DNA of 64,000 bases from a virus (IMGVR_UViG_3300008110_000030:34707-98706), one strand, 5' to 3'; numbered from the stretch's first letter, positions 7,229-45,623 are shown. The notes: generated by a model not told the origin, from the sequence alone. Made by a program: numbers and translations.

Positions 7229-7233
7229 TTGGC

Positions 7234-10609: not shown

Positions 10610-10684
10610 GTATTAATTTACTAAGCATTTAATTTATCGCTCTACTACCGTTAAATAATAATGACGGTAATCGGAGAGCGAGCA

Positions 10685-11230: not shown

Positions 11231-11233
11231 CCC

Positions 11234-12484: not shown

Positions 12485-12582
12485 AGATAGCGAGTACGGA
12501 GGAACGTAGAGGTAAACTTAATTTAATGGCCGTAGGCCAAGGAGCGTGGTTGGAGAATATATAATCCAATCGTGTATAAAAG

Positions 12583-13557: not shown

Positions 13558-13566
13558 GAGGTTGGA

Positions 13567-14673
13567 ATGAACGTATGGCTAGCAATATTACTTGTTTCGT
13601 TACTGCACACATCAAATGCTCAAGCGGCAATTGGTAAAGTAACGGAACAGGTAAACATACCTCCTACAATTCAACGAGATAAATCAACCCTAACTGGCAG
13701 CAAAGGTACAGGTGTTGAGATGAATGACTCAATTAAAACTTCTCAAGGCAAAGTGGGCATTACCTTTGAAGATGATACCCGTGTACAAGTAAACGAAAAC
13801 AGTAAACTGGTTATTGATGACTTTGTTTATGATCCAAAAACCAAAGCAGGTAAACTAGGTGCTAAGATTGCACTAGGTACTGTACGCTATGCTAGTGGAC
13901 AGATTGCTAAGAATAGTCCACAGAGTGTAAACCTTAATACACCTAGTGCTACTGTAGCAGTTCGTGGTACGGACTTTACAGCCACAGTAGACGAACTTGG
14001 TGAGAGTACAATTATTCTACTACCTAGTTGTCCTAACGATAGACCTACACGTACAGTAAAAGACATTGAAGCAAGTTGTAAAACTGGTGTAATTGAAGTC
14101 AGCAATGACGTGGGCACTGTAATATTAAATCAACCGTTCCAAGTAACTAAAGTACAGAGCAGAACACAACCTCCTACTCCACCTAAAACACTGGAGTTAT
14201 CTGAAATGGCTATCAGTAACTTGATAATTTTGAGTCCTCCAAAAGAAGTTAAGCAAGCTCAAGAAGAACAGCGTAAAGTGTTTAATCCTTTAGACATAGA
14301 TTTTCTAAAAGAAAAAGGATTAGAGAACTGGCTTGATATGCAAGCTGGAGTTATCTACGAAGACAAACTAAAGAAAAACTTTTTGGATAACGATTTCCTA
14401 GCCAGCTTATTTGACATTATTGGTAATCAATTGGATCAAAAATTCTTAGACCCAGTAGATCCTGTACTACCTGACTACAAGAGAGCTACTGGTATCGTTG
14501 CCTACAAAGATGATACGAGTATTGAATTGTGTAGAGATAGTGGTGCTGACATACAGTGTGTTAAAACTCCTTTAACACAGAACAGTACAATCTTCCAAAC
14601 ACAAGGTAGTTTAGAGTTTAAGAATCGTGTTAATCAAGGCGGTAATACTATCATTACCTTAATACAAAGATGA
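13567..14673 (+). CDS. secreted FecR-domain protein
   Basis: signal peptide; TPSATVAVRGTDFTATV matches FecR-domain core (x-V-x-V-RGT-x-F); sits between the two curlin-like genes. Confidence 0.5.
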   Translation: MNVWLAILLVSLLHTSNAQAAIGKVTEQVNIPPTIQRDKSTLTGSKGTGVEMNDSIKTSQGKVGITFEDDTRVQVNENSKLVIDDFVYDPKTKAGKLGAKIALGTVRYASGQIAKNSPQSVNLNTPSATVAVRGTDFTATVDELGESTIILLPSCPNDRPTRTVKDIEASCKTGVIEVSNDVGTVILNQPFQVTKVQSRTQPPTPPKTLELSEMAISNLIILSPPKEVKQAQEEQRKVFNPLDIDFLKEKGLENWLDMQAGVIYEDKLKKNFLDNDFLASLFDIIGNQLDQKFLDPVDPVLPDYKRATGIVAYKDDTSIELCRDSGADIQCVKTPLTQNSTIFQTQGSLEFKNRVNQGGNTIITLIQR

Positions 14674-15938
14674 AACGTTTTATTTTAGGATTTGTAATCT
14701 TGTGGTGTGTATGTTTGAGTGCAATTGCTCAAGCCACGTCTTTTACTGATTTAAAATTTGGTCAATATCAGATTGCAGATTCTCAATGGGACGTTGGGGC
14801 ATGTTTGTATACAAATACTTGTAATATTTACAGTACTCAACCAGGAACAATGTATCAAATACCTTGGTGGAACGGACAGTGGAACTGGCAATCTGGTCAG
14901 TATGTTAAATTTTTATTAAGTGGAATCTCTGGATATCCTTACACCGCAAATGTTTACAATAGTGACGGCAGTCTAGCAGGTAGTATAGGTAGTGGTAAAA
15001 TTATTAACATGGGTGTTGATGCAAATGGTTATGCATTATTTTTCTTTGTAGGGACAGATGATAATACTGGACAACTTTTTAGTACAAATTACGGATTTAC
15101 AGGTACGGGCGGATATTCTTGGACTGGTACATTAAATCCAACAATTTCACAAGTTGACTCATTTTCTGTAAGTTACGGATCAACGACACCATTAAGTCCT
15201 GGTCAAACATTTACTGCTACCAGTTCAACTCCATCTGGACCAACAGTCTCAGGCGGAACTATAACACAGTCTAACGCTCCAAATAATCAAATTATAGGCA
15301 GTGGAAGTGGTATTGGAATCAGCAACAATCAACAAAGTCGTGTAAACACTTGGAATAACGGTAGCAATCAAAATGCCAATAACTATTTGTATATTGATCA
15401 AGTAAGTGGTTCCTACAATGACGTAACTATTACACAAACAACTAGTACAGGTAAGAACAAAATAGAAGCGACAATAGGCGGAACTGGAAATAATGTTATT
15501 AACGCAACACAATCTGGTACTAACTATCTTAAGTTAGATGTCACTGGTAATAACAACAATGTAACAAGTCAACAGTCTAATAATAGTTTGACTAGCAATT
15601 ATAAAGAAACTACAGTTAATGGTAATAGTAATATTATTAGTACTAACCAAAAAGACAATTCTAATCACATAATGTTTACCACAGTAACTGGTAACAGTAA
15701 TAGTGTGACAGCAGTACAAGAAGGCACAGGTGGTCACTATTTAGAAAATAAACTTACTGGCAACAATAATAGTGTACTTGCTAATCAGAGCGGAAATACA
15801 AAAAATAACGCCACTATAGATTTAACTAATAATGGCGGAGCCGCCAGTGTTGATTTACAACAATCTGGCGGGAAATCTTTTAGTATTATTCAAAGTTGTA
15901 CCAATCCTGCAGGATGTAGTACTGTGGTAAGACAATAA
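14670..15938 (+). CDS. curlin-repeat protein with about 230-aa non-repeat N-terminal domain
   Basis: signal peptide; C-terminal half made of curlin-like repeats (YIDQVSGSYNDVTITQT, VINATQSGTNYLKLDVTGNNNNVTSQQS, VTAVQEGTGGHY, VLANQSGNTKNNATIDL, VDLQQSGGKS); ATGA overlap with previous gene. Confidence 0.65.
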   Translation: MKRFILGFVILWCVCLSAIAQATSFTDLKFGQYQIADSQWDVGACLYTNTCNIYSTQPGTMYQIPWWNGQWNWQSGQYVKFLLSGISGYPYTANVYNSDGSLAGSIGSGKIINMGVDANGYALFFFVGTDDNTGQLFSTNYGFTGTGGYSWTGTLNPTISQVDSFSVSYGSTTPLSPGQTFTATSSTPSGPTVSGGTITQSNAPNNQIIGSGSGIGISNNQQSRVNTWNNGSNQNANNYLYIDQVSGSYNDVTITQTTSTGKNKIEATIGGTGNNVINATQSGTNYLKLDVTGNNNNVTSQQSNNSLTSNYKETTVNGNSNIISTNQKDNSNHIMFTTVTGNSNSVTAVQEGTGGHYLENKLTGNNNSVLANQSGNTKNNATIDLTNNGGAASVDLQQSGGKSFSIIQSCTNPAGCSTVVRQ

Positions 15939-16628
15939 TTATACCTTAAATAACCATTTCTTTGTTATGTGTAATCTTGCCTTGTTGTACTGAACAGCAG
16001 TAATAACTAGAGCAACTGCCCAAGGTACAATAGTAGCGGCCCAAGGAACTAATCCTGCCCACCACGTAGCCATTAATGGTTCTTTCATCAACATTAACAT
16101 AGCCACGGCAAACAAGACAAACGATCCTACAAATACTGTGTCAGGATATTTTTCTAGTATCTTACTAACTAGGCCAGCACCAAACAAAATAATTGGCACA
16201 CTGATTAACAAGCCAGCAATTACTAAAACAAAACTTCCATTAGCGGCTGCGGCAATACCTAGTGCGTTGTCTATGCCCATAACAGCATCGGCAACTACGA
16301 TAGTACCAATAGCACCCCAAAAGGTGTCCTTGGCTTCTATGTTATGCTCGTCATGTGTAAATGCTAACTTCCAACCAATCCATAACAATGCAAGAGCACC
16401 TATTGCTCTAAGTCCAGGAATTAGTAATAGGTAAGTTAATGCGGCTACAGATATGAAGCGTATTGCGATGGCACCAAAGGTACCCCAAAAGATTGCTTTC
16501 TTGCGCAAGTGATCTGGTAGTTTATTAGCTGCCATTCCAATAACAAGAGCGTTATCGCCAGCTAATACAATGTCTATCAAAATGATAGCTAAAAATGCCC
16601 AAAGGGCCTGAAGCGTAAAGAGTTCCAT
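15939..16628 (-). CDS. TerC/YjbE-family integral membrane protein
   Basis: 229 aa on minus strand; duplicated LAGDNALVIG / GIDNALGIA motifs typical of TerC family; multiple TM helices. Confidence 0.8.
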   Translation of the reverse strand: MELFTLQALWAFLAIILIDIVLAGDNALVIGMAANKLPDHLRKKAIFWGTFGAIAIRFISVAALTYLLLIPGLRAIGALALLWIGWKLAFTHDEHNIEAKDTFWGAIGTIVVADAVMGIDNALGIAAAANGSFVLVIAGLLISVPIILFGAGLVSKILEKYPDTVFVGSFVLFAVAMLMLMKEPLMATWWAGLVPWAATIVPWAVALVITAVQYNKARLHITKKWLFKV

Positions 16629-17300: not shown

Positions 17301-17593
17301 TTAAGAAAATCTTATTAATTCTATTGGTCTGCTTACCCAGTCTAGTTAACGCCCAATTCCAATACGATTATCCATTGTTGTGCGACCGCACTGCAAAGAT
17401 CATACAAAGTCTCGGGGACGACTGGAAAGAAACGCTGACTTGGAGTGGAAAACACATCAGTGACAACAGTGTCTACAGTCTGTGGACCAATGAAAAAAAT
17501 GGATCATGGACCCTATTAAAGATGACTTCAGAAGTTTCGTGTATACTTGGAACGGGTAGCGAATCAAAAGTAAACTTAGGAATGCCTATATAA
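17297..17593 (+). CDS. small secreted protein
   Basis: signal peptide MIKKILLILLVCLPSLVNAQ; ATGA overlap upstream and TAATG overlap downstream. Confidence 0.45.
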   Translation: MIKKILLILLVCLPSLVNAQFQYDYPLLCDRTAKIIQSLGDDWKETLTWSGKHISDNSVYSLWTNEKNGSWTLLKMTSEVSCILGTGSESKVNLGMPI

Positions 17594-19635
17594 TGATTAA
17601 GAAAATTTTATTAAGCCCTTGGACTGCTCTATTAACACTGGCGTTAGTAGTGGGCATACGTGCGGCAGACCCCACATTCGTTGAAAGCGTAAGACTACGC
17701 TACTTTGATACCTTAATTACTGCTAAGGAACCAACATTCAACAATATTGTAACAGTAAATATTGATGAAGCTAGCTTGGACAAGTATGGACAATGGCCAT
17801 TGCCAAGGACTGAATATGCCAAAATTATACGAGATCTATATCAGAGGGGAGCAGGACTTGTTGTACTTAATGTGCTCATGCCAGAGTCAGACCGTACAGG
17901 TGGCGACAGTGCGTTGGGTCAAACTCTAAAAGAATTTCCAGTAGTGCTAGGGTCAGTTCCTAGCAACAAAACAAAAAATACTCCACGTGCCCCAGGGTCA
18001 GCAGTATTAGGCCCAGAGCATTTGGATCAAATTATTCGGTATCCAGGTCTAATTGCCAATGTGCCATTGCTAGAAAATTCGGCGGCAGGAGTTGGCATAG
18101 TTTCAACACTACCTGAAGTAGACGGTGTTAATCGTAGATTACCTCTTATCGTCACTGTTGATGGTAAATTATATCCAAGCATAGCTATGGAAACGCTCCG
18201 CATTGCGGCTGGCGATAGCACCTTTCAAGTAAAACTATTTGAGGGCGGTGTTGAAAAAATGCGTATACCTAAATTTGGTCCTGTTACTACAGACAATTTG
18301 GGTCGTATATGGATTGACTGGAGTCAGCAAAATAGAAACTTTAGTTTAACTACATTACCAAAAGATTTAGAAGGTGCAATTGTCATCGTAGGCCCAACAG
18401 CCGCAGGTATTAGTAATCCAGTACCAACAAGTAAAGGGGCAGTATTTCCACACGAAGTACAAGCCGCAGTTATTGGTACAATGGTAAACGGAGTTGTAAT
18501 TGAACGTCCTGATTATGCAGATGGCGCAGAGATTATAGCATTATTAGCATTTGGTTTATTATTAATTTTCTTATCGAGGTGGACTTATGTTGGCATTTGT
18601 GCTACTGTGGTTATTGTTGGTGCCGTCGTTCCTGGTACTATGTACGCTTTCACTAATTGGCTCATCCTATCAGACGCGACTGCAATCACGTTTGGGCTTA
18701 TTATCGTTGCTCTTCATACTTATGGCGTTAAGTTTGTAAGCGAGTTCTTACAGAAGCAGGCAATTAAGAAACAATTTGAGGGATATGCAAGTCCTACAGT
18801 AGTTAAACTACTACAAGAAAATCCAGACATCATCAAGAACGGAACTAAACGTGAAGTATCTATAGTGTTTTCAGACCTACGTGGATTTACTCCATTAGGT
18901 GAAAGTTTTGGTGATGACGTTAAAGGTCTAACTGAAGTTATGAACGGCTACATGGATGCTATTACACAACCTGTACTAGATGCAGATGGTATGATTATCA
19001 AGTACATTGGTGATGCAAGTATGCATATTCATAATGCACCTATTGATGATCCTGACCATGCTAAGACAGCAGTAGCTACTGGACTTAAAATGTTGAAAGC
19101 TGTTAAAAAGTTCAGCATTGAATTAGAGGCTAAAGGACGTCCAGGAGTCAAGATGGGTGCTGGTATCAATACTGGTTTAGGTTATATTGGCGAGATGGGA
19201 TCAACTCGTCGTCATTCATATGATGTACTAGGTGATGCAGTGTCAACAGCCGCACGTATTGAAAGCAAGTGTAAAGAATATGGATGCGTATTATTAGTTG
19301 GCGGTGCAACTGTGGAACAATGTGGTGATGATTTCTTCTTCTTAAAAGTAGATGACCTGGCTGTTAAGGGTAAGAGTGTGGGAGTTGCTATCTATACAGT
19401 ATTAGATGATGTTACTGCTGAGTATCATGTGAGTAAAAAGATACATGATGCTATGCATAATGCATATAGATCACAAAAATTTAACATGGCTATCAGTATG
19501 TGCAAACAACTTAGAGATCAGTTTGACAGTAGATTGACTGGTTACTATGACATGTGGATAGAACGTTGCGAGTTCCAATTAACACAAACATTGCCTGAGG
19601 ATTGGAACGGCGTGTTTATAGCAACTTCTAAATAA
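17593..19635 (+). CDS. CHASE2 sensor domain-containing class III adenylate/guanylate cyclase
   Basis: 680 aa; N-terminal periplasmic domain, TM cluster, C-terminal cyclase homology domain (VSIVFSDLRGFTPLGE, IKYIGDASM, GINTGLGYIGEMGS). Confidence 0.85.
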   Translation: MIKKILLSPWTALLTLALVVGIRAADPTFVESVRLRYFDTLITAKEPTFNNIVTVNIDEASLDKYGQWPLPRTEYAKIIRDLYQRGAGLVVLNVLMPESDRTGGDSALGQTLKEFPVVLGSVPSNKTKNTPRAPGSAVLGPEHLDQIIRYPGLIANVPLLENSAAGVGIVSTLPEVDGVNRRLPLIVTVDGKLYPSIAMETLRIAAGDSTFQVKLFEGGVEKMRIPKFGPVTTDNLGRIWIDWSQQNRNFSLTTLPKDLEGAIVIVGPTAAGISNPVPTSKGAVFPHEVQAAVIGTMVNGVVIERPDYADGAEIIALLAFGLLLIFLSRWTYVGICATVVIVGAVVPGTMYAFTNWLILSDATAITFGLIIVALHTYGVKFVSEFLQKQAIKKQFEGYASPTVVKLLQENPDIIKNGTKREVSIVFSDLRGFTPLGESFGDDVKGLTEVMNGYMDAITQPVLDADGMIIKYIGDASMHIHNAPIDDPDHAKTAVATGLKMLKAVKKFSIELEAKGRPGVKMGAGINTGLGYIGEMGSTRRHSYDVLGDAVSTAARIESKCKEYGCVLLVGGATVEQCGDDFFFLKVDDLAVKGKSVGVAIYTVLDDVTAEYHVSKKIHDAMHNAYRSQKFNMAISMCKQLRDQFDSRLTGYYDMWIERCEFQLTQTLPEDWNGVFIATSK

Positions 19636-21112: not shown

Positions 21113-21187
21113 CTGGCGATAGTTCAACGGATAGAACAGTAGCCTTCTAAGCTATTAATCCAGGTTCGATTCCTGGTCGCCGGACCA
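21113..21187 (+). tRNA. tRNA-Arg (anticodon TCT), CCA encoded
   Basis: cloverleaf folded by hand: acceptor CTGGCGA/TCGCCGG (one G-U), D arm GTTC-AACGGATA-GAAC, anticodon arm GTAGC-CTTCTAA-GCTAT, T arm CCAGG-TTCGATT-CCTGG, discriminator A + CCA; 75 nt. Confidence 0.85.
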
Positions 21188-24092: not shown

Positions 24093-24177
24093 GCCTGCAT
24101 GGTGAAATCGGTAAACACAGCAGACTTAAAATCTGCCGGAGAAATCCTTCCCAGTTCGATTCTGGGTGCAGGCACCA
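24093..24177 (+). tRNA. tRNA-Leu (anticodon TAA), type II with long variable arm, CCA encoded
   Basis: acceptor GCCTGCA/TGCAGGC, D GTG-AAATCGGTAAA-CAC, anticodon GCAGA-CTTAAAA-TCTGC, variable CGGAGAAATCCTT, T CCCAG-TTCGATT-CTGGG; 85 nt. Confidence 0.85.
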
Positions 24178-24239: not shown

Positions 24240-24324
24240 GCGACTGTGGTGAAATAGGTAGACACAAGAGACTTAAAATCTCTCGCCCACAGGCATCCCG
24301 GTTCGATTCCGGGCAGTCGCACCA
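24240..24324 (+). tRNA. tRNA-Leu (anticodon TAA), second divergent copy, type II, CCA encoded
   Basis: acceptor GCGACTG/CAGTCGC, D GTG-AAATAGGTAGA-CAC, anticodon AGAGA-CTTAAAA-TCTCT, variable CGCCCACAGGCAT, T CCCGG-TTCGATT-CCGGG; 85 nt. Confidence 0.85.
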
Positions 24325-36762: not shown

Positions 36763-37208
36763 TGAAAATTGGACTTAGTTATAGTCGCTGTGTTAGAGAT
36801 ATCGTTGACGGTGTGGTAGACCTAGACGATGTGCTAGTATTAATTACACGCACAGACTTTGATCCACACAATGACGAACAATGGGCAAGCATTTGGTTGG
36901 GGTACGGGGGCGGAACTGAAAATGCGTACACACGTGGATTCTTTAGTCACAGTAATCCTGAGTGGGCTGGATATCCTCCTGAAGAAGAAGCCAAATTTCG
37001 TTTGATTAGTACTGAACTGTATGATCAAGGTAAATTGCATCAGCCTCGTAAGTTTGGAGCTCATCCAAAACGACGTCCTGAAATTTGGCTAGAAGCAGTA
37101 TTACCAAACAGCGAGTTGGACAAAAACCCAGCAGCCAAAGCCGCTTGGAATAGATTCCAGATGATTGCTGGATTAACAAATGTAGAATTAGATGACAAAT
37201 ATCAATAA
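36762..37208 (+). CDS. hypothetical protein
   Basis: 148 aa. Confidence 0.45.
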
Positions 37209-37218
37209 AGGAAACAAA

Positions 37219-37839
37219 ATGAGTTTAGTGCCAATGGTGGTTGAGAAAAGCAATCAAGGCGAACGTGCCTATGACATTTATAGTCGATTGCTCAAAGATC
37301 GTGTGATCTTTTTGAACGGTGAAGTGGAAGACTATATGGCCAATGTAATTATTGCGCAACTACTATTTTTAGAAAGTGAGAATAGCGAGTTGGATATTCA
37401 CTTGTACATTAATAGTCCAGGCGGTAGCGTGAGTGCCGGTCTTGCAATTTACGACACTATGCAGTTCATTAAACCTGATGTATGTACCTATGTAATGGGA
37501 CAAGCGTGTAGTATGGGCAGTTTCCTTGCACAAGCAGGGGCTCCTGGTAAACGAGTAGTACTACCAGAATCACGCACAATGATTCATCGTGTGAGTTCAG
37601 GTACTCGTGGTACAAGCGGTAGTATTCACGTACAAGACTTGCAATTTGAAGATGCTAAACGTAGCTTTGAAGAAGCACAGCGTATTAACAAACGTTTGAC
37701 TGAACTGTATGTACGTCACAATACTGTAGGCAAAACTTATGAAGAGCTGTTTGAGACTATGAAGTTTGATACGTTCTTGAGTGCCTCCGAAGCAGTATCT
37801 AATGGTCTTGCTGACCAAGTGATTGCAAAACGTCCTTGA
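37219..37839 (+). CDS. clpP: ATP-dependent Clp protease proteolytic subunit ClpP
   Basis: near-collinear with E. coli ClpP ([51 protein letters not shown] catalytic Ser, MIH His); AAGGA SD before ATG 37219. Confidence 0.9.
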
Positions 37840-39384: not shown

Positions 39385-39924
39385 ATGGCAAAATATCTTT
39401 CAACAAAAACATACGGTAACGACCGCGGCTTATCATGCTGTTTTAGACAGTGGCGTAGTACACATAGTCACTGCTCATTACTGCACGGATATTCAATTGG
39501 TATTAAACTAGTTTTTGAATCTGAAACACTGGATACTCGAAATTGGGTCATGGACTTTGGCGGACTCAAAGCATTTAAAGAGTGGGCTGACCACATGTTT
39601 GATCATACTTTGGTAATTGCTGAAGATGATCCCCATCGTGCCATGTTTGAAAAGATGGCTAGTTTGGGCTTACAAGATAAAGGTGGAGTGTGTGACGTCC
39701 GTATCGTAGAAGGTGTAGGATGTGAAAAATTCAGCGAATTAGCTTTTAAAACCATGCAAGAAATTTTGGAAACTTTCCAAAGAGGCGAAGGTTGGGAATT
39801 AAAAGACCAAACAGGCAAAACAGTAAAACTGTTTGGTGCTCGATACCCAGTTGGTTCTGATGTTAAATTACGGTCAGTAGAAGTTTTTGAACATGCGGGC
39901 AATTCAGCAGTTTACGAAGGTTAA
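39385..39924 (+). CDS. queD: 6-carboxy-5,6,7,8-tetrahydropterin synthase QueD / PTPS family
   Basis: 179 aa; CSLLHGY (CxxxHGH-type zinc motif) and PTPS-like core HxxDFGGLK. Confidence 0.7.
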   Translation: MAKYLSTKTYGNDRGLSCCFRQWRSTHSHCSLLHGYSIGIKLVFESETLDTRNWVMDFGGLKAFKEWADHMFDHTLVIAEDDPHRAMFEKMASLGLQDKGGVCDVRIVEGVGCEKFSELAFKTMQEILETFQRGEGWELKDQTGKTVKLFGARYPVGSDVKLRSVEVFEHAGNSAVYEG

Positions 39925-40077
39925 GAAACTTTGGCGTCTTTGGGCTAAGGCTTTGGGTGAAAAATCCGGCAGTTCGGATGAAGAAGCAGATAAAATCGCT
40001 TGCATTCGGACTGCAATTGTGTTAACATATATTATAACAAACTTTTTTATTGTAGCAGGCGTTATAAGGCATTGGTA

Positions 40078-40485
40078 ATGACTACTGGATTTACATGTTC
40101 AACATTTGATTTGTTTCACGCAGGTCACGTAATGATGCTCAAAGAAGCCAAAGAGCATTGTGATTATCTTCTTGTTGGGCTACAAACAGATCCAACCATA
40201 GATAGACCACACAAAAACAAGCCTATCCAAACAGTATTTGAACGTTTTATACAATTAAAGGCTTGTAAGTATGTTGACGAAGTTGTAGTGTATGCTACTG
40301 AAAAAGAACTTCGAGACATATTGCTTTCTTATCCTATTAGTATTAGAATACTGGGAGAAGAATATGCTGGTAAAGAATTTACTGGCGATGATATTGATAT
40401 GGACTTTTATTTCAATCGACGAGAGCACAGTTTTTCAACAACCGAACTAAGACAGCGTGTAGTAGACGCAGAAAGTAAAAAATGA
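40078..40485 (+). CDS. cytidylyltransferase-like nucleotidyltransferase (HxGH family, TagD-like size)
   Basis: GFTCSTFDLFHAGHVMML = (T/H)xGH signature; ATG 40078 chosen (ORF-track 40000). Confidence 0.6.
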   Translation: MTTGFTCSTFDLFHAGHVMMLKEAKEHCDYLLVGLQTDPTIDRPHKNKPIQTVFERFIQLKACKYVDEVVVYATEKELRDILLSYPISIRILGEEYAGKEFTGDDIDMDFYFNRREHSFSTTELRQRVVDAESKK

Positions 40486-41498
40486 TTAAGCGCATAGGCT
40501 TTGCATGTAAGTGGATCGACACTCCTGATCAAGTAGATGGTATCAGGGCTACTGATGATTGTAAGCAATACAACACTGGTGCTACCACCATAACTTGGTT
40601 AAATAAACAAACAAAAGAAGTTGCTGAACAAAAGCTATGGGATCTAATGGTCCAGAACTTAGAAGCGACTCGTTTGCTTGTTGAAAGGGTAGGTAAACAA
40701 CATGAAAGACTCCGCATGGTTCGCCTTAGTAGCGACATTCTTCCTGCTTATACCCAGTCTGATTGGAGTTACTTTTGGAGCAAGCCTGACGTTGTCCAGT
40801 ATCTTGAACGCAATTTTATCCTTATTGGGGATAGTGCTCGTGCAAGCAATACCCGTGTTTCTATGCATCCTGGTCAGTTTACTGTTCTTGCTAGTGATAA
40901 TCCGGACATTGTTCGGCGAAGCATAGAGGAGTTTGAATATCATGCAGATATGGTCAGGTACATGGGCTACGGTAAACAATTTCAGGACTTTAAGATCAAC
41001 GTCCACATCTCGGGTAGAGCCGGTCCCGAAGGTATTCGAGCTGCCTACAAAAAACTTACCCCCGAAGCAAGAAATTGCATCACCATTGAAAATGAGGAAA
41101 TGAGCCATGGTTTATCTACTTGCTTGTCTCTTGGTGACCTTCTTCCTATTGTACTTGATATCCATCATCATTGGATTAAAGAAGGTGAATACATCATGCC
41201 TAATGACCCAAAAGTACAGCAAGTACTTGACAGTTGGCGTGGTCTTCGCCCTACTATGCACTATAGCGTTAGCAGGGAAGACGTGTTGGTTGGTCATTGC
41301 ACACTGACTAAACCTGATCACAAGACTCTGTTAGAGTCTGGACATAAAAAACAAAAACTTAGAGCACACAGTAATTTTTATTGGAATAAAGAAGTTAATG
41401 ATTGGGCTTTGACTTTTAATGACCAATTTGATATTATGTGCGAAAGCAAGGCTAAGAACCTAGCCAGCAAGGCATTGTTTGACTACAGCAATACTTGA
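40482..41498 (+). CDS. uvdE: UV damage endonuclease UvdE/UvsE-like
   Basis: 338 aa; collinear with B. subtilis UvsE blocks (RIGFAC, LRMVRLSSDILP, MHPGQFTVLAS, INVHISG, IENEEM, IVLDIHHH, MHYSVS). Confidence 0.65.
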   Translation: MIKRIGFACKWIDTPDQVDGIRATDDCKQYNTGATTITWLNKQTKEVAEQKLWDLMVQNLEATRLLVERVGKQHERLRMVRLSSDILPAYTQSDWSYFWSKPDVVQYLERNFILIGDSARASNTRVSMHPGQFTVLASDNPDIVRRSIEEFEYHADMVRYMGYGKQFQDFKINVHISGRAGPEGIRAAYKKLTPEARNCITIENEEMSHGLSTCLSLGDLLPIVLDIHHHWIKEGEYIMPNDPKVQQVLDSWRGLRPTMHYSVSREDVLVGHCTLTKPDHKTLLESGHKKQKLRAHSNFYWNKEVNDWALTFNDQFDIMCESKAKNLASKALFDYSNT

Positions 41499-41568: not shown

Positions 41569-41859
41569 TTACGCAGTCTTCTTAGGCGCCCTAGGCTTAG
41601 TACCAACTTTCTTTACAGCTGGTGTCTTTGCTGGGGCTTTTGGTTTTGGAGCTGCCTTAGCTTTTGCAGGTGCCTTTGCAGGTGCCTTTGCAGGTGCCTT
41701 TTTAGTTGCTGGCTTTTTCTTAGCTGGTGCAATTGATTCAACAACTGCTTGACTAGCTTGCTCAACAACTGGTGTTGTCGCAGGTGCTTCCACTTTATAT
41801 GGAACTTCTGCTGTTACCGGCTTCTCTGAACCAAATAATGATTTTAGAAATTTAATCAT
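41569..41859 (-). CDS. histone H1-like Lys/Ala/Pro-rich basic protein
   Basis: 96 aa; C-terminal half KKKPATKKAPAKAPAKAPAKAKAAPKPKAPAKTPAVKK; AAGGAGAT SD. Confidence 0.6.
   Translation of the reverse strand: MIKFLKSLFGSEKPVTAEVPYKVEAPATTPVVEQASQAVVESIAPAKKKPATKKAPAKAPAKAPAKAKAAPKPKAPAKTPAVKKVGTKPRAPKKTA
41676..41711. repeat. 3 x 12-nt perfect tandem repeat GCAGGTGCCTTT (encodes KAPA repeats on minus strand)
   Basis: direct tandem repeats read from sequence. Confidence 0.85.
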
Positions 41860-41931: not shown

Positions 41932-41960
41932 TTGACTTAAAGAGATATTGGTGCTACAAT
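41932..41960 (+). promoter_or_regulatory. sigma70-type promoter TTGACT-N17-TACAAT upstream of sufC
   Basis: near-consensus hexamers 44 nt upstream of ATG 42004. Confidence 0.5.
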
Positions 41961-42003: not shown

Positions 42004-42729
42004 ATGTTAAAAATTACAAATCTCTCCGTCAATTACGACGTTATTCCAATTTTGGAAGATATCAATTTAGAAATCAATGAAGGCGAAATTCACGCCATTT
42101 TAGGACCAACAGGTTCAGGCAAAAGTTCCTTAGTCAGTGTTATTGCTGGCAAATCAGATCTTAGCGTTGTCAAAGGTAAAATAAACTTTAAGAGAAAATC
42201 TTTAAACAGTTTAGATCCAAATGAAAGAAGTAAATTAGGAATTTTTACAACATTTCAGGAGCCACCTGAAATTAATGGCATTACAAATTTAAATTTAACT
42301 AGACAAATTTTGAATGCTCGAAATGATAAAAGATCATCAACTGACGTTATTAATGATTATAAAAATTTAATAAAACAATTTGATCTAGGAAGCGAATGGT
42401 CTAATCGAGATTACAACGTAGGAGCAAGCGCAGGCGAAAAAAAGAAAAATGAAATTGTACAGTTATACATGCTCAATCCATCTCTTACAATTTTAGACGA
42501 TATTGACAGTGGCTTAGACTTAGACACACTAACTGAAGTATTTAAAAGTTTAAAATCTTTCCTCTCACAAAAAGGAAAGGCAGCTATCATTATCACACAT
42601 CAACCAACGATCCTTGAAGCAATAGAGCCCACACATGTGCATGTTATCATAGATGGAAGAATCGTGGAGTCAGGTGATAAGAAAATAATTAAAAGGATCA
42701 TTTCAAATGGCTATCGAGAGTTTTCTTAA
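42004..42729 (+). CDS. sufC: Fe-S cluster assembly ATPase SufC
   Basis: 241 aa; Walker A GPTGSGKSS, ABC signature-like SAGEKKK, Walker B ILDDIDSGLD; typical SufC length. Confidence 0.85.
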   Translation: MLKITNLSVNYDVIPILEDINLEINEGEIHAILGPTGSGKSSLVSVIAGKSDLSVVKGKINFKRKSLNSLDPNERSKLGIFTTFQEPPEINGITNLNLTRQILNARNDKRSSTDVINDYKNLIKQFDLGSEWSNRDYNVGASAGEKKKNEIVQLYMLNPSLTILDDIDSGLDLDTLTEVFKSLKSFLSQKGKAAIIITHQPTILEAIEPTHVHVIIDGRIVESGDKKIIKRIISNGYREFS

Positions 42730-43531
42730 AGTTGATTCACAAGACCCAGATTGGTCAAACAGTCCTACACAGTACTTTGGTAAAAAATTTAAGGTCATTG
42801 ATGCAAATTGCTTAATGATAAAAGAAAATACTGATGACTTGATGGTTCTACGTATGAATCCAACTGAATCAGATTTGTTATGCAAAAATTTACAAGTGCT
42901 TGGAAGAGACAGTAGTAGGCTAGACTTATTCATTCTATGCGATGGATCTAAAAATACTCAACAGGTTTTTATTTACAATGTAACTGCTGAACCAAATTCA
43001 ATTATTAATATTGGGATTTTTGTTAAAGACGGGAAACTTAATAAGCATATATTTGAATGTGAGCTATACGAAAACTCTGTTATTAATATCTTTGGTCTAG
43101 CAGAAAATGGGGTTGGCGGTAGCAGTGAGATTATAAGCAAAGTTTATCACGCTGGTCCTTGTGCAGAGAGCAACACGTTTGTAAACAGTATTGCTGGAAA
43201 AAATAGTCGAACTGTCTTTCAGGGTATTGTTAAAATTGAAGAAGACATGATAGACAGCGTGTCCAGTGTAACTAATACCAGTATTGTCTGTGACGAAACT
43301 TCACAAGCATTTAGTACTCCACAAATGGTTATTGACTGTGGACAAGTACGGGCGTATCATAGTTGTGAAGTTACTACAATTGACGAACATAGTCTATGGT
43401 ATTTAGAAAGCAAGGGCATTGATAAAGTCAGTGCTGAGAACTTGTTAAAAACCCTGCATCAAGATAGTGTGTTGGAACTTATTGAATATCAAGACATTAA
43501 AGATGAACTCAAAGATTTTTTCCAAAGTTAA
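42707..43531 (+). CDS. sufD: SufD/SufB-family protein, short form (274 aa)
   Basis: C-terminal HAGPCAE...VFQGIVKI...AYHSCEVTTIDEHSLWYLESKGI matches SufB/D beta-helix core; overlaps sufC. Confidence 0.6.
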   Translation: MAIESFLKVDSQDPDWSNSPTQYFGKKFKVIDANCLMIKENTDDLMVLRMNPTESDLLCKNLQVLGRDSSRLDLFILCDGSKNTQQVFIYNVTAEPNSIINIGIFVKDGKLNKHIFECELYENSVINIFGLAENGVGGSSEIISKVYHAGPCAESNTFVNSIAGKNSRTVFQGIVKIEEDMIDSVSSVTNTSIVCDETSQAFSTPQMVIDCGQVRAYHSCEVTTIDEHSLWYLESKGIDKVSAENLLKTLHQDSVLELIEYQDIKDELKDFFQS

Positions 43532-44651
43532 AAGCGATTTTACTTTACCAGACAAAACATACTTAAACAGTGCATCACAAACTATAATTCCTAATCAGGT
43601 AAAGGATTCCTACCTTGATATTTGTAATAAAATTGATGCAAGGGATGAGTATGAGTTTATTAGACAAAAAGTAAAATTATTAATTAATTCTAAAAAAGAC
43701 AACGAAATAATTTTTACTCAAGGAAACAATCATGGCATAAACATGATTGCCAAGAGCATTTGTCACAAATGGCATTCAAATGATTGTGTAATTGTTCCTG
43801 AAAGTGAACACCATGCTAATTTTCTCATTTGGCAATACATGTCCATTGAATATGGTTTTAGATTTGAAACCGTAAATGTTATCAAAGATGGCAGTATGGA
43901 TCTTGGTCATCTTGAAGATTTACTCAATGGCTGTGATGGTAAGATATTGTTCAGTATGAGCCATATCTCTAACAGTATTGGTTATGTACAACCTGTTAAA
44001 AGTATATTTGATAAAGTCAAAGAATATGACGGGATAACTTTGCTAGATGCAAGTTTAAGCATTGGCAGAGAAACAATAGACGTGCAAGATTTCAATATTG
44101 ATTTTTTAACATTTACTGGACATAAATTTTATGGTCCAACGGGTGTTGGCATGTTATACGGGAAACAAAAGTATTTAGACAAGTTAGAACCTACTATATT
44201 AGGTGATAGCAATAGTACACTACTCCCTTGGAAATTAGAAATTGGCAAACCCAACATTGCAGGGGTAGTAATGTTAGGTTCAGCAATTGACTGGTTCACT
44301 TCATATGATTTAGAAAGTTTTAAAGTTCATGACAAACTTATGAATGCAAACTTTCAAATGATGTTGAATGACCTTGACTTCATAGAAATATTCCACCCAG
44401 GTTACTATAAAGGTGGCTTAATTGGCTTCAACGTACATGGCCACCATCCTGCTTATGTAGGAGAATTTTTACTTAACGAAGGAATTGTATTAAAATATGG
44501 TCATTTAAATGCAAGACCAATTGTAGAAGAAAAATTCCCAAATGGAATACTTAGATTGAGTTGGGCTTGCTACAATACTAAAGATGATGTTGAACATTTA
44601 AAACAGGGTCTTGTAAAATTCTACGATAAATACAATTCTAAAAGGACATAA
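43503..44651 (+). CDS. sufS: SufS/CsdA-like class V aminotransferase (cysteine desulfurase family)
   Basis: PLP-lysine motif FTGHKFYGPTGVGMLYG; C-terminal RLSWACYNTKDDVE like SufS RASLAMYNTHEEVD; ATG 43503 chosen; GHLNA where group II enzymes have GHHCA. Confidence 0.75.
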   Translation: MNSKIFSKVKSDFTLPDKTYLNSASQTIIPNQVKDSYLDICNKIDARDEYEFIRQKVKLLINSKKDNEIIFTQGNNHGINMIAKSICHKWHSNDCVIVPESEHHANFLIWQYMSIEYGFRFETVNVIKDGSMDLGHLEDLLNGCDGKILFSMSHISNSIGYVQPVKSIFDKVKEYDGITLLDASLSIGRETIDVQDFNIDFLTFTGHKFYGPTGVGMLYGKQKYLDKLEPTILGDSNSTLLPWKLEIGKPNIAGVVMLGSAIDWFTSYDLESFKVHDKLMNANFQMMLNDLDFIEIFHPGYYKGGLIGFNVHGHHPAYVGEFLLNEGIVLKYGHLNARPIVEEKFPNGILRLSWACYNTKDDVEHLKQGLVKFYDKYNSKRT

Positions 44652-44654
44652 AAT

Positions 44655-45041
44655 ATGGCATATTCAGACAAAGTAATCGATCATTACGAGAATCCTCGCA
44701 ACGTTGGTAGCTTTGACAAGAACGATACCGATGTTGGCACTGGCATGGTTGGTGCACCTGCTTGCGGTGATGTAATGAAACTACAGATAAAGGTAGACAA
44801 TGATACAGGTATTATTACAGATGCAAAATTTAAAACGTATGGCTGCGGATCGGCTATCGCGAGCTCGAGTCTCGTTACAGAATGGCTCAAAGGAAAAACT
44901 CTCGACGAAGCAGGAACAATCAAAAACTCCGAAATCGCCACAGAACTAGCATTACCCCCAGTAAAGATACACTGTAGTATTCTAGCAGAAGATGCTATTA
45001 AGGCGGCTGTAAATGATTACCGTAACCGACACAGCACGTAA
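44655..45041 (+). CDS. iscU: Fe-S cluster scaffold IscU
   Basis: 128 aa, nearly identical in long blocks to E. coli IscU (VIDHYENPRNVGSF, GAPACGDVMKLQIKV, KTYGCGSAIASSSLVTEW, LPPVKIHCSILAEDAIKAA). Confidence 0.9.
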   Translation: MAYSDKVIDHYENPRNVGSFDKNDTDVGTGMVGAPACGDVMKLQIKVDNDTGIITDAKFKTYGCGSAIASSSLVTEWLKGKTLDEAGTIKNSEIATELALPPVKIHCSILAEDAIKAAVNDYRNRHST

Positions 45042-45339
45042 GAGAATTAAACAGAATTTAGAAAAACGCGGCAAAGGCGTGGGTATTCGCATAGGTGTAA
45101 AAACCACAGGCTGTAGTGGATTGGCCTATACTATCGAATATGTGGATGAATACACTGCTGAACCTGGAGTCACTAATTTTGGTCAACCAGAATTTATTGT
45201 GCTGGTCGATGCCAAGAGTTTGGCTTATCTAAATGGTTTAACAATGGATTGGGTTCGCAACGGACTTAATGAAGGATTTGATTTTATTAATCCCAATGAG
45301 CGTGACCGCTGTGGATGTGGTGAAAGTTTTAGAGTTTAA
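45013..45339 (+). CDS. iscA: Fe-S cluster insertion protein IscA/SufA (HesB family)
   Basis: 108 aa; GCSGLAY...VDAKSLAYLNG...CGCGESF matches IscA. Confidence 0.85.
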   Translation: MITVTDTARKRIKQNLEKRGKGVGIRIGVKTTGCSGLAYTIEYVDEYTAEPGVTNFGQPEFIVLVDAKSLAYLNGLTMDWVRNGLNEGFDFINPNERDRCGCGESFRV

Positions 45340-45623
45340 ATCTTACCAATTGGCAATGTACTGCTAACTGGCATATCCCAAATTTTTCTTTTAGTAATGC
45401 CCATTCGTTGGGCAAATTTTTTGACGTCACATTCTCCGCAAACATGAAAATATTTGTTGCTGAGTCTTTTGGGGTCTATCTTAGCATGATCCCTTGTAAA
45501 ATCCCTGTCACAATTGTCACATCGAAAAACATTAATTGTTTTTGTTCTAGTATAATGATGTTCTTTGCCTAATTTACTGCTTCGAACATAATTAGAAATT
45601 TCTTTAAAGGATCGTATGAACAT
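45336..45623 (-). CDS. putative small zinc-ribbon protein
   Basis: 95 aa minus-strand ORF in otherwise non-coding gap; CDNCD...CGECD pairs. Confidence 0.4.
   Translation of the reverse strand: MFIRSFKEISNYVRSSKLGKEHHYTRTKTINVFRCDNCDRDFTRDHAKIDPKRLSNKYFHVCGECDVKKFAQRMGITKRKIWDMPVSSTLPIGKI

What the first reader, a model, noticed from the sequence alone, without database searches (positions are those of the whole stretch)
42004..45339. Hybrid Fe-S cluster biogenesis cassette (sufC, short sufD, sufS-like, iscU, iscA) in a phage
Five tightly overlapping genes under their own sigma70-like promoter encode SufC, a 274-aa SufB/D-family beta-helix protein, a SufS/CsdA-like PLP enzyme, an IscU scaffold with long identical blocks to E. 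coli IscU, and an IscA/SufA A-type carrier. The mix of Suf ATPase components with Isc-type scaffold and carrier, and the absence of SufB and SufE in the window, is unusual. A virus carrying its own Fe-S assembly line implies Fe-S-dependent phage or host functions that are limiting during infection.
Basis: partly seen in the sequence, partly recalled or inferred. Interest (0 to 1): 0.8.

Follow-up and report, generated by a model that had tools for sequence, protein, structure and literature searches.

The report
Remodelled iron-sulfur gene cassette in phage
A giant freshwater phage carries five iron-sulfur-cluster genes, but only the IscU scaffold and IscA carrier look working: the sulfur-donating enzyme has lost its catalytic cysteine and the SufB and SufE partners are gone, so this is a cut-down remnant of a complete SUF operon found in sister phages, not a self-sufficient viral assembly line.

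Summary
The five tightly packed genes are real, sit at the stated coordinates and belong to the named families. The window is a jumbo phage (rIIA/rIIB, giant tail-fibre proteins). The same locus recurs on more than 35 viral contigs of up to 353 kb.

The "own assembly line" reading does not hold. The SufS-like protein has Asn in place of the catalytic Cys364. It lacks two active-site segments and differs at 9 of 16 residues that are invariant in working SufS. SufC has Asp for the catalytic Glu171 and SAG for the SGG signature. SufB and SufE are absent from the window. IscU (81% identical to E. coli) and IscA keep every ligand residue.

Sister phages carry a complete, residue-perfect sufB-C-D-S-E-T-A operon at the same position. 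Others keep only sufC-sufD. The window is therefore an intermediate in a reduction series, with iscU-iscA in place of sufE-sufT-sufA. All five genes are still under strong purifying selection (dN/dS about 0.05).

Best reading: IscU and IscA plug into the host ISC pathway. SufC, SufD and the dead SufS have a non-canonical role that is still unknown. This is a new variant of a known kind of viral metabolic gene, with an interesting SufB-independent SufCD core.

The parts
41932..41960 (+). Candidate sigma-70-type promoter: TTGACT, 17-nt spacer, TG-extended TACAAT. It lies 44 nt upstream of sufC.
   Evidence: 10 of 12 consensus matches plus the TG extension, in the only intergenic gap upstream of the cassette; both hexamers are identical in L010 and L005. 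Motif counts in the region are not above shuffled sequence, so the site is only a candidate.
42004..42729 (+). sufC: a SufC-family ABC ATPase of 241 aa. Walker A Lys, Q-loop, D-loop and H-loop are intact. The catalytic Glu171 is Asp and the signature SGG is SAG.
   Evidence: TIGR01978 253 bits, above the cutoff of 212.8; motif table; dN/dS 0.058 against L010.
42707..43531 (+). Short sufD of 274 aa: SufBD beta-helix core plus three C-terminal helices. The N-terminal domain of canonical SufD (about 150 aa) is missing. The equivalent of His360 (H218) is kept.
   Evidence: PF01458 95 bits. TIGR01981 99.8 bits, below the cutoff of 222; residues 113-260 align to E. coli SufD 254-402, with H218 on H360. 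AlphaFold pLDDT 91, and the best PDB matches are SufD/SufB (5AWF_B, TMq 0.79); an isolated family, with only 7 representatives at E<1e-30, all about 274 aa.
43503..44651 (+). sufS* of 382 aa (the longest ORF starts at GTG 43467). It has the SufS fold but is a pseudo-desulfurase: C364N, H363L, R359K, T278K, Q203L, T94N, T95N. The H55/R56 loop is deleted (13 aa in the pairwise alignment) and so is the type-II beta-hairpin (11 aa). PLP Lys226, H123, H124, N175, D200 and R379 are kept.
   Evidence: alignments and residue tables. TIGR01979 267 bits, below the cutoff of 475; model pLDDT 92.8, TMq 0.92-0.93 to SufS structures; dN/dS 0.049.
44655..45041 (+). iscU: a canonical IscU scaffold of 128 aa. 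Cys37, Asp39, Cys63, His105, Cys106 and the LPPVK motif are all present.
   Evidence: TIGR01999 224.8 bits, above the cutoff of 192.4, while the SufU model scores 67 bits, below its cutoff of 92.5; 81% identity to E. coli IscU, all motifs intact.
45013..45339 (+). iscA: an A-type Fe-S carrier of 108 aa, with the three ligand Cys (C-x63-C-G-C). It is IscA-like rather than SufA-like.
   Evidence: TIGR00049 100.6 bits, above the cutoff of 58.8, and IscA TIGR02011 132.9 bits, below the cutoff of 150.6; 55% identity to E. coli IscA, 37% to SufA, and only 27-33% to the carriers of the full-SUF sister phages.
45398..45414 (+). Candidate intrinsic terminator 59 nt after iscA: a 6-bp stem followed by a T-rich tail.
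   Evidence: The number of such sites is not above shuffled sequence, so this is a weak candidate only.

Best explanation
The cassette is a derived, cut-down version of a complete proteobacterial-type SUF operon (sufB-sufC-sufD-sufS-sufE-sufT-sufA). That operon sits at exactly this locus, between uvdE and a giant tail-fibre gene, in sister jumbo phages.

What changed in the window's lineage:
- sufB, sufE, sufT and sufA were lost.
- An iscU-iscA pair, in the order of a bacterial isc operon, now follows sufS.
- SufS became a catalytically dead, SufS-shaped protein.
- SufC lost its catalytic Glu and its perfect signature motif.

Shown:
- The gene content and the residue states.
- The homologous locus series.
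- Strong purifying selection on all five genes.

Inferred:
1. During infection, the phage IscU and IscA add scaffold and carrier capacity to the host ISC pathway. They would take persulfide from host IscS and use host HscA/HscB (through LPPVK) and ferredoxin. This is the role proposed for the lone IscU and A-type carrier genes already known from marine viruses.
2. SufC and the short SufD still form a SufC-SufD type complex. Without SufB it cannot be the canonical scaffold, so it serves an accessory or regulatory role.
3. SufS* is a non-catalytic partner of that complex or of IscU.

The cassette cannot make Fe-S clusters on its own.
For: Residue states
- SufS*: HMMER against the PDB and MAFFT both place Asn on Cys364 (E. 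coli) / Cys361 (B. subtilis), and show the two deletions.
- Nine of 16 active-site positions differ. These positions are invariant in E. coli SufS, in 15 cellular SufS and in 18 phage SufS that sit beside SufB/SufE.
- SufC is E171D and SGG>SAG. Glu171, Lys40 and His203 are essential in E. coli (review PMC6006206).
- No SufB or SufE lies in the window.
- IscU and IscA have all ligands and pass their family cutoffs.

Locus series
- Full B-C-D-S-E-(T)-A: L104, L108, L109, L110 and L017. They have intact SufB R226/N228/C254/Q285/W287/K303/C405/E432/H433/E434, SufE Cys51 and SufS Cys364.
- C-D-S*-U-A: the window, L102, L018, L135 and L137.
- C-D-S*-SOD-A-U-A: L105-L107.
- C-D-S*: L012.
- C-D only: 24 IMG/VR loci plus L015/L016.

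Polarity and selection
- In a SufC+SufD neighbour-joining tree the window nests among full-operon phages. The clade has 87% bootstrap support.
- All six Suf genes of two full-operon phages show graded, concordant divergence, as expected for co-inheritance.
- dN/dS for the window against L010: SufC 0.058, SufD 0.048, SufS* 0.049. The neighbours give UvdE 0.046 and tail fibre 0.054.

Precedent
- Lone viral IscU and A-type carrier genes are established auxiliary metabolic genes (PMC5332604).
Against: - No experiment exists. The host is unknown, so it is not shown that the host has an ISC pathway for the phage IscU to dock on.
- The window SufS* keeps the PLP lysine, His123/124, Asn175, Asp200 and Arg379, so a different PLP chemistry is not excluded.
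- SufC E171D and SAG are conservative changes and might leave some ATPase activity.
- SufD keeps the His360 equivalent, so a residual cluster or iron role is possible.
- A strain with otherwise identical neighbours (L004) has a 171-bp in-frame deletion in sufS*. In L107 the gene is split. Both point to dispensability rather than function.
- The tree is neighbour-joining with moderate support, and the root (E. coli) sits on a long branch.
Confidence: 0.62

Rival explanations
1. One reading: a self-sufficient hybrid assembly line. SufS would mobilise sulfur from cysteine straight to IscU, SufC-SufD would supply ATP-driven iron delivery, and IscA would distribute the clusters.
For: - All five families are present in one tight operon.
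- The gene order sufC-sufD-sufS-(U-type scaffold) mirrors the Firmicutes sufCDSUB operon, in which SufS hands sulfur to an IscU-like SufU (own knowledge; operon named in PMC8038749, listed).
- SufD His218 is kept.
Against: - The catalytic Cys is Asn, and the beta-hairpin that mediates partner contact in type II enzymes is deleted (PMC8300815).
- Relatives with the same cassette have also lost the PLP lysine (L018, L135, L137).
- The scaffold is IscU-type, not SufU-type.
- SufC's catalytic Glu is changed.
Confidence: 0.08
2. SufS* is still an enzyme but with different PLP chemistry that needs no enzyme cysteine. Examples are a C-DES-like cystine lyase that makes cysteine persulfide, or a selenocysteine or cysteine-sulfinate lyase. 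It would feed sulfur to the phage IscU.
For: - The window protein keeps Lys226, His123/124, Asn175, Asp200 and Arg379.
- The fold is intact, with pLDDT 92.8.
- dN/dS is 0.049.
- A cysteine-less NifS-like lyase (C-DES) is known in cyanobacteria (PMC8300815).
- E. coli SufS C364A is reported to keep selenocysteine lyase activity (own knowledge).
Against: - The PLP-phosphate Thr94/Thr95, Gln203 and Thr278 are also changed, and the H55/R56 loop is deleted.
- Seven of 16 degenerate family representatives lack the PLP lysine altogether, yet keep the same length and the same neighbours. Whatever is conserved across the family is therefore not PLP catalysis.
Confidence: 0.13
3. SufC, SufD and SufS* are functionless remnants on their way to deletion. 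Only iscU-iscA matters.
For: - There is a graded loss of catalytic residues across the phage group.
- Strain L004 has a 171-bp in-frame deletion in sufS*.
- sufS* is split in L107 and absent from 24 C-D-only loci.
Against: - The ORFs are intact and of constant length across 35-93% identity.
- dN/dS is about 0.05 in the window lineage and 0.04-0.23 for SufC/SufD in phages that have nothing else of the system.
- Start-stop overlaps are preserved.
Confidence: 0.08
4. Interference rather than help. The degenerate SufC-SufD-SufS* proteins would bind host SUF or ISC components (SufB, SufE, IscU), either to shut down or redirect host Fe-S and oxidative-stress homeostasis, or they have been exapted for something unrelated such as tail-fibre assembly.
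For: - SufC-SufD is the invariant core of the locus in more than 30 phages. It always lies next to the giant tail-fibre gene and often next to an Fe/Mn superoxide dismutase.
- The ATP-sandwich signature motif is intact only where SufB is present. The P-loop lysine is kept in every SufC with data.
- The SufD fold is a beta-helix.
Against: - This is purely contextual. The whole region is syntenic, so adjacency may mean nothing.
- There is no similarity to defence or anti-defence families beyond generic ATPase or desulfurase hits.
- No interaction data exist.
Confidence: 0.08
5. The region is bacterial DNA misassembled into, or recently captured by, a viral contig.
For: - Several 'phage' database records with Suf/Isc genes are evidently bacterial contigs: Acinetobacter phage MD-2021a and Microcystis phage MaAM05.
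Against: - The identical cassette with the same phage neighbours is found on independent assemblies from different projects.
- The homologous locus occurs on at least 35 viral contigs of up to 353 kb.
- The GC is 0.32-0.43, like the phage.
- The nearest cellular SufD scores at most 80 bits, at 22-30% identity.
- The cassette is flanked by rII and tail-fibre genes.
Confidence: 0.01

Closest known systems
Escherichia coli / proteobacterial sufABCDSE operon (SufBC2D scaffold, SufS-SufE sulfur relay)
   Same: - SufC, SufD and SufS homologues occur in the same order, C-D-S.
- Sister phages have the whole set in order B-C-D-S-E, with a proteobacterial-type SufB (NF008773 834 bits, above the cutoff of 717) and all critical residues.
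   Different: - The window has no SufB, SufE or SufA-type carrier.
- SufD is 274 aa against 423 aa.
- SufS lacks Cys364 and the beta-hairpin.
- SufC is E171D.
- IscU and IscA are added.
Firmicutes sufCDSUB operon
   Same: The gene order is sufC-sufD-sufS followed by an IscU-fold protein. There is no SufE.
   Different: - There is no sufB.
- The U protein is a true IscU (LPPVK, His105; passes the IscU cutoff and fails the SufU cutoff).
- SufS is catalytically dead.
- The resemblance in order arose secondarily, from a B-C-D-S-E ancestor.
Viral auxiliary metabolic genes for Fe-S assembly (lone IscU and A-type carrier genes in marine viromes and environmental viral genomes; Nishimura et al. 2017, PMC5332604; phage C48C1 iscU)
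   Same: - IscU of gamma/beta-proteobacterial type and an A-type carrier are encoded by a tailed phage.
- ClpP and other proteostasis genes lie nearby, as noted for some marine viral genomes.
   Different: - Here the two genes form a five-gene operon with SufC, SufD and a SufS-derived protein.
- The operon descends from a complete viral SUF operon.
- I found no description of such a multi-gene viral cassette in the searched literature or in GenBank phages.
E. coli SufC2D2 complex (PDB 2ZU0)
   Same: - It has SufC plus SufD without SufB.
- The model of the phage SufD superposes on SufD, including the C-terminal helices that bind SufC.
   Different: - The E. coli complex is regarded as probably non-physiological (PMC6006206).
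- In these phages the SufB-less pair is encoded naturally and kept by selection.
- The phage SufD lacks the N-terminal domain.
Minimal SUF-like system SMS (SmsC-SmsB) of archaea and anaerobes
   Same: It is a two-gene ATPase plus SufB/D-family pair. The solved SmsB chain is of similar size (9H78_B, 289 residues) and appears among the fold matches.
   Different: - The phage protein is SufD-like, not SmsB-like. The SmsB model did not hit it at all, and scores only 26 bits on the L017 homologue.
- It lacks the SufB-type Cys405 and Glu434 ligands.
Cysteine-less NifS-like proteins (C-DES cystine lyase of Synechocystis)
   Same: It is a class-V aminotransferase-fold protein lacking the conserved active-site cysteine, historically linked to Fe-S cluster formation (PMC8300815).
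   Different: - SufS* is clearly derived from a type II SufS within the phage lineage.
- It has lost further PLP-site residues.
- Several orthologues lack the PLP lysine.

Membership tests
SufC (Fe-S assembly ABC ATPase) | Scores above the curated equivalog cutoff | tested here: met
   TIGR01978 253.2 bits against a cutoff of 212.8
SufC (Fe-S assembly ABC ATPase) | Walker A Lys40 and H-loop His203, both essential in E. coli | tested here: met
   GPTGSGKS and ITHQ align to GPNGSGKS and VTHY; essentiality from PMC6006206
SufC (Fe-S assembly ABC ATPase) | Catalytic Glu171 after Walker B and an intact ABC signature S-G-G | tested here: not met
   ILDDIDSGLD (Asp for Glu) and ASAGEKK (SAG). Both motifs are canonical only in the sister phages that have SufB
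SufD | SufBD beta-helix core plus the C-terminal helical SufC-binding domain | tested here: met
   PF01458 95 bits. AlphaFold pLDDT 91.4, 14 strands plus 3 helices. Top PDB matches are SufD/SufB: 2ZU0, 5AWF_B TMq 0.79
SufD | His360, the only SufD residue shown to be essential | tested here: met
   H218 aligns with H360
SufD | Equivalog score and full length with the N-terminal domain | tested here: not met
   TIGR01981 99.8 bits against a cutoff of 222. 274 aa against 423 aa. Nearest cellular proteins score at most 80 bits, at 22-30% identity
SufS (type II cysteine desulfurase) | Class-V aminotransferase fold with PLP-binding Lys226 | tested here: met
   PF00266 258 bits. GHK is kept. The model has TMq 0.92-0.93 to SufS structures
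SufS (type II cysteine desulfurase) | Catalytic persulfide-forming Cys364 | tested here: not met
   Asn at that position by HMMER and by MAFFT
SufS (type II cysteine desulfurase) | Type-II beta-hairpin insertion near the PLP lysine, and the other invariant active-site residues (H55, R56, T94, T95, Q203, T278, R359) | tested here: not met
   The hairpin and the H55/R56 loop are deleted. T94N, T95N, Q203L, T278K, R359K. TIGR01979 267 bits against a cutoff of 475
SufS (type II cysteine desulfurase) | Dedicated sulfur acceptor SufE or SufU encoded alongside | tested here: not met
   No SufE in the window. The adjacent scaffold fails the SufU model: 67 bits, below the cutoff of 92.5
IscU scaffold | Equivalog score; Cys37, Asp39, Cys63, His105, Cys106; LPPVK chaperone motif | tested here: met
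   TIGR01999 224.8 bits, above the cutoff of 192.4. All residues are present, with 81% identity to E. coli IscU
A-type carrier (IscA/SufA/ErpA) | Family score and the three conserved Cys | tested here: met
   TIGR00049 100.6 bits, above the cutoff of 58.8. TGCSG...CGCGESF is present. The IscA equivalog cutoff is narrowly missed: 132.9 against 150.6
Complete SUF pathway | SufB scaffold subunit and the SufS-SufE sulfur relay present | tested here: not met
   Absent from the 64-kb window. Present and intact in sister phages L104, L108, L109, L110 and L017. The rest of this phage's genome was not available
Complete ISC pathway | IscS, HscA/HscB and ferredoxin present | tested here: not met
   No IscS-type, HscB or Fdx hit in the window. 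The Hsp70 at 4856-6745 is DnaK (999 bits), not HscA (608 bits, below its cutoff of 709)
Viral auxiliary metabolic gene cluster | Host-type metabolic genes stably embedded in a virus genome | tested here: met
   rIIA/rIIB and tail-fibre neighbours. Conserved locus on at least 35 viral contigs. Phage-like GC
Viral auxiliary metabolic gene cluster | Expression and benefit during infection | not testable with these tools
   Needs a cultured host, or metatranscriptomes mapped to this phage

The most novel reading that the evidence does not exclude
SufC plus a short SufD, without SufB, would be a stand-alone functional module of a large clade of freshwater jumbo phages. That would make it a natural SufC-SufD complex with a job other than the canonical SufBC2D scaffold. 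Possible jobs are iron handling, oxidative-stress control, or manipulation of host Fe-S homeostasis. The Cys-less SufS-shaped protein of the window would be a pseudoenzyme that couples this module to a captured IscU-IscA pair. Separately, sister phages would encode the first complete, apparently functional viral SUF machinery (SufBCDSE plus SufT and SufA).
Probability: 0.35. Interest if true: 0.8.

Novelty: new variant of a known kind. Interest (0 to 1): 0.64.

Why it matters
Viral IscU and A-type carrier genes are known, but only as single genes whose partners are assumed to be host proteins. This locus adds three things.

1. A phage lineage acquired an entire SUF operon and kept every catalytic residue.
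2. The same locus records, step by step, how such an operon is dismantled and rebuilt with ISC parts.
3. One piece is never lost: SufC plus a truncated SufD. It persists under purifying selection even after SufB, the SufC signature motif and the SufD histidine are gone.

Fe-S researchers regard SufC2D2 as a probably non-physiological surrogate for SufBC2D. A natural, conserved, SufB-less SufCD pair and a conserved dead desulfurase make that assumption testable.

The case is also a caution for AMG surveys. Family-level annotation ("cysteine desulfurase", "SufC") would have scored this cassette as a working sulfur-mobilising pathway, when the key catalytic residues are missing.

Tried and rejected
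- **Megablast of the cassette against GenBank phages:** no match. tblastn with the short SufD found only weak hits to canonical SufD in records that look bacterial.
- **'Phage' records with Suf/Isc genes:** Acinetobacter phage MD-2021a and Microcystis phage MaAM05 turned out to be ordinary bacterial isc or suf operons with housekeeping neighbours. They are not comparators.
- **Whether the window's Hsp70 is a dedicated HscA for IscU:** rejected. It is DnaK.
- **Donor lineage of iscU-iscA:** a GTDB scan with IscA returned Comamonadaceae at 62-66% identity. E. coli IscA is closer to those bacteria (70%) than the phage protein is. The only safe statement is 'beta/gamma-proteobacterial ISC type'. 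No host can be named.
- **Discordant divergence of IscU/IscA:** between the window and L010 these proteins are 87% and 65% identical, while the flanks are 93-96%. This suggests module exchange, but I could not show independent capture from bacteria.
- **Fe-S client enzymes in the window:** Pfam on all ORFs of at least 90 aa found none. By-eye inspection of the small ORFs found none either. The only link is a ferredoxin-dependent bilin reductase.
- **PADLOC defence models:** only generic ATPase and desulfurase similarity.
- **Literature:** five searches found no description of a viral sufBCD or sufCD cassette. The library does not cover subscription journals.
- **Tree:** a first bootstrapped tree run timed out and was redone with a faster distance calculation.

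Full report
**Observation**

Five ORFs on the + strand lie at the coordinates given: 42004-42729, 42707-43531, 43467-44651, 44655-45041 and 45013-45339. They overlap or abut: a 23-nt overlap, a 29-nt overlap, a 3-nt gap and a 29-nt overlap. For the third gene, the start used by gene callers on identical metagenome contigs is the ATG at 43503, giving 382 aa.

Pfam and NCBIfam confirm the families:

| Gene | Model | Score (bits) | Cutoff |
|---|---|---|---|
| sufC | TIGR01978 | 253 | 213 |
| sufD | PF01458 (SUFBD_core) | 95 | passed |
| sufD | TIGR01981 (SufD equivalog) | 100 | 222 |
| sufS-like | Aminotran_5 | 258 | passed |
| sufS-like | TIGR01979 (SufS subfamily) | 267 | 475 |
| iscU | TIGR01999 | 225 | 192 |
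| iscU | TIGR01994 (SufU) | 67 | 92.5 |
| iscA | TIGR00049 (A-type carrier) | 101 | 59 |
| iscA | TIGR02011 (IscA equivalog) | 133 | 151 |

- A promoter-like TTGACT-17-TG-TACAAT sits at 41932-41960. It is identical in a relative whose coding flanks have dS 0.3-0.8. Motif counts in the region equal those of shuffled sequence, so this is only consistent with a promoter.
- tblastn with E. coli and phage SufB, SufE, SufT, SOD, HscB and Fdx finds nothing else in the window.

**The genome is a phage**

- The window encodes rIIA and rIIB, a 2853-aa protein with tail-fibre PHROG matches, and two further giant fibre-like proteins. It also carries many host-like genes: DnaK, Hsp20, ClpS, ClpP, heme oxygenase, a bilin reductase, CsgG/CsgF, a CHASE2 cyclase, TerC and UvdE.
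- It has no close DNA relative among 50,697 GenBank phage records.
- The exact SufD protein occurs on 12 metagenome contigs from several projects, one of them 0.2-1 Mb long.
- Homologous loci occur on 34 IMG/VR contigs of up to 353 kb.
- Cassette GC (0.32-0.43) matches the window (0.38).
- Misassembly of bacterial DNA can be dismissed.

**Residue-level anatomy**

*IscU.* It is 81% identical to E. coli IscU and has Cys37, Asp39, Cys63, His105-Cys106 and LPPVK.

*IscA.* It has its three cysteines. It is IscA-like: 55% identical to E. coli IscA and 37% to SufA.

*SufD.* The protein aligns to E. coli SufD residues 254-402, with H218 on the essential His360.
- An AlphaFold model (pLDDT 91.4) is a 14-strand beta-helix plus three C-terminal helices. 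Its best PDB matches are SufD and SufB.
- The N-terminal third of canonical SufD is missing.
- An exhaustive HMMER search of 1.84 billion representatives found only seven proteins at E<1e-30, all about 274 aa. Scores then drop to canonical SufD/SufB at 80 bits or less. This is an isolated, phage-borne SufD subfamily.

*SufC.* It keeps Walker A, the Q-loop, the D-loop and the H-loop. It has Asp for the catalytic Glu171 and SAG for the SGG signature. Lys40, Glu171 and His203 are essential in E. coli (PMC6006206).

*SufS-like protein (SufS\*).* This is the key result.
- HMMER against solved structures and MAFFT agree that the catalytic cysteine (E. coli C364, B. subtilis C361) is Asn: 'GHLNARP' against 'GHHCAMP'.
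- The H55/R56 loop is deleted (13 aa in the pairwise alignment).
- The type-II beta-hairpin insertion next to the PLP lysine is also deleted (11 aa).
- T94, T95, Q203, T278, R359 and H363 are replaced.
- K226, H123, H124, N175, D200 and R379 remain.
- The fold is intact: pLDDT 92.8 and TMq 0.92-0.93 to SufS structures.

**Comparative series at one locus**

In related phages the stretch between uvdE and a conserved 95-aa antisense gene plus the giant fibre gene holds different subsets of the system:

| Cassette | Loci |
|---|---|
| [SOD]-sufB-C-D-S-E-(T)-A | L104, L108, L109, L110, L017 |
| C-D-S*-iscU-iscA | window, L102, L018, L135, L137 |
| C-D-S*-SOD-A-U-A | L105-L107 |
| C-D-S* | L012 |
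| [SOD]-C-D only | 24 IMG/VR loci plus L015/L016 |

- The full-operon phages keep every residue checked: ten in SufB (including C254, C405 and E434), SufE Cys51, and all 16 of the universally invariant SufS residues. Their SufC has canonical motifs and their SufD has the histidine.
- Their SufB passes the proteobacterial equivalog cutoff: 834 bits against 717.
- The SufC signature is intact only where SufB is present. The SufD histidine is lost in all C-D-only phages.
- Of 34 phage-family SufS representatives, 18 are canonical and 16 are degenerate. Among the degenerate ones, 9 keep the PLP lysine, like the window, and 7 have lost it too. All keep a length of 368-389 aa apart from one deleted variant.
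- Every degenerate representative whose context I read lacks SufB and SufE.

**Polarity**

- In a neighbour-joining tree of SufC+SufD, all SufS-containing loci form one clade with 87% bootstrap support. Within it, the window lineage nests among full-operon phages, with moderate support.
- Two full-operon phages show graded divergence across the operon: SufB 73%, SufC 62%, SufS 57%, SufD 53%, SufE 47% and SufA 35% identity. This is as expected for co-inheritance of the whole operon.
- The window's carrier is only 27-33% identical to the carriers of the full operons. It therefore arrived together with iscU and did not descend from the phage sufA.
- The window arrangement is thus derived: sufB, sufE, sufT and sufA were lost and iscU-iscA were gained.
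- Whether the C-D-only clade is ancestral or reduced is not resolved.

**Selection**

| Comparison | Gene | dN/dS |
|---|---|---|
| Window vs L010 | SufC | 0.058 |
| | SufD | 0.048 |
| | SufS* | 0.049 |
| | UvdE (neighbour) | 0.046 |
| | tail fibre (neighbour) | 0.054 |
| C-D-only phage pairs | SufC, SufD | 0.04-0.23 |

The degenerate genes are therefore not neutral relics. On the other side:
- One strain with identical neighbours has a 171-bp in-frame deletion in sufS*.
- L107 has a split sufS*.
- IscU and IscA are far more diverged between the window and L010 than the flanking genes. This suggests module exchange.

**Mechanism**

*Shown.* The cassette lacks a sulfur-mobilising cysteine, SufE, SufB, IscS, HscBA and ferredoxin, so it cannot build clusters alone.

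*Inferred.*
- The canonical IscU and IscA add scaffold and carrier capacity to a host ISC pathway. This is the role proposed for lone viral IscU and A-type carrier genes (PMC5332604).
- SufC-SufD probably still pair, because the SufC-binding helices and the Q-loop are kept. Without SufB they must do something other than act as the canonical scaffold.
- SufS* is most simply a non-catalytic partner.

A different PLP chemistry (C-DES-like) is the main rival for the window protein itself. It is weakened by the lysine-less orthologues found in the same cassette type.

**Comparison with known systems and novelty**

- The parts belong to known families, and viral IscU and A-type carrier genes are known.
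- Two features are unusual relative to the resources I could search. One is a multi-gene viral cassette descended from a complete viral SUF operon. The other is a conserved SufB-less SufC/short-SufD core accompanied by a dead desulfurase.
- I found no description in five literature searches or in GenBank phages. The library omits most subscription journals.
- I rate this a new variant of a known kind.

**Limits**

- The host is unknown. The IscA scan pointed to Comamonadaceae at 62-66% identity, but E. coli IscA is closer to them than the phage protein is.
- Only 64 kb of a genome likely longer than 240 kb was available.
- The tree is distance-based.
- All functional statements are inferred from sequence.

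Noticed in passing
L104, L108, L109, L110, L017 (for example L017:5880-11032): Sister jumbo phages carry a complete sufB-sufC-sufD-sufS-sufE-sufT-sufA operon, often preceded by an Fe/Mn superoxide dismutase. All checked catalytic residues are intact. This looks like a full viral SUF machinery.
   Followed up: partly
L111-L134, L015/L016: At least 24 related phage loci keep only sufC plus the short sufD (with or without SOD) under purifying selection (dN/dS 0.04-0.23). This holds even though SufC has lost the ABC signature motif and SufD has lost the His360 equivalent. Their function is unexplained.
   Followed up: partly
L004:4783-5760 (window about 44170-44339): A strain whose neighbouring genes encode proteins 99-100% identical to the window's has a 171-bp in-frame deletion inside sufS*, removing 57 aa.
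   Followed up: partly
window 7606-8827: A heme oxygenase is followed by an overlapping ferredoxin-dependent bilin reductase (PcyA-like, below the cutoff). Such pigment genes are typical of cyanophages, yet here they sit in a phage with proteobacterial-type Isc genes. Heme oxygenase releases iron and the reductase needs a [2Fe-2S] ferredoxin, so a link to the cassette is possible.
   Followed up: no
window 4856-7603 and 37192-37839: There is a proteostasis set: a full-length DnaK (999 bits; not HscA), Hsp20, ClpS and, elsewhere, ClpP.
   Followed up: partly
window 10661-15938: There is a curli-type secretion cluster in a phage: a CsgF-like gene, CsgG, two Gly/Asn/Thr-rich repeat proteins (one with a curlin-repeat hit) and a FecR-domain protein.
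   Followed up: no
window 17593-19635 and 15939-16628(-): A CHASE2-sensor adenylate/guanylate cyclase (680 aa) and a TerC-family membrane protein are encoded by the phage.
   Followed up: no
window 21113-21187, 24093-24177, 24240-24324: There are three tRNA genes: Arg(TCT) and two copies of Leu(TAA). All read A/T-ending codons.
   Followed up: no
window 41569-41859(-) and 45336-45623(-): Two small antisense genes bracket the cassette and are conserved in most relatives. One is a 96-aa Lys/Ala/Pro-rich (histone-H1-like) protein. The other is a 95-aa four-cysteine, zinc-ribbon-like protein.
   Followed up: no
window 39385-41498: A QueD-like 6-pyruvoyl-tetrahydropterin synthase, a cytidylyltransferase-like protein and a UvdE UV-damage endonuclease lie just upstream. 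The same order is conserved across the phage group. QueD hints at a 7-deazaguanine pathway, whose QueE step needs a [4Fe-4S] cluster, but no QueE lies in the window.
   Followed up: no
window 44655-45339 vs L010:11949-12642: IscU and IscA are much more diverged between the window and its closest relative (87% and 65% amino-acid identity, dS saturated) than the flanking genes (93-96%, dS 0.3-0.8). This suggests the isc module was exchanged by recombination.
   Followed up: partly
L003 (MW495066.1) and L002 (CAKLQH020000011.1): GenBank records labelled Microcystis phage MaAM05 and Acinetobacter phage MD-2021a hold ordinary bacterial suf or isc operons next to housekeeping genes (panB/panC, ppiD, hupB, mfd). 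They are probably bacterial sequence filed as phage.
   Followed up: partly
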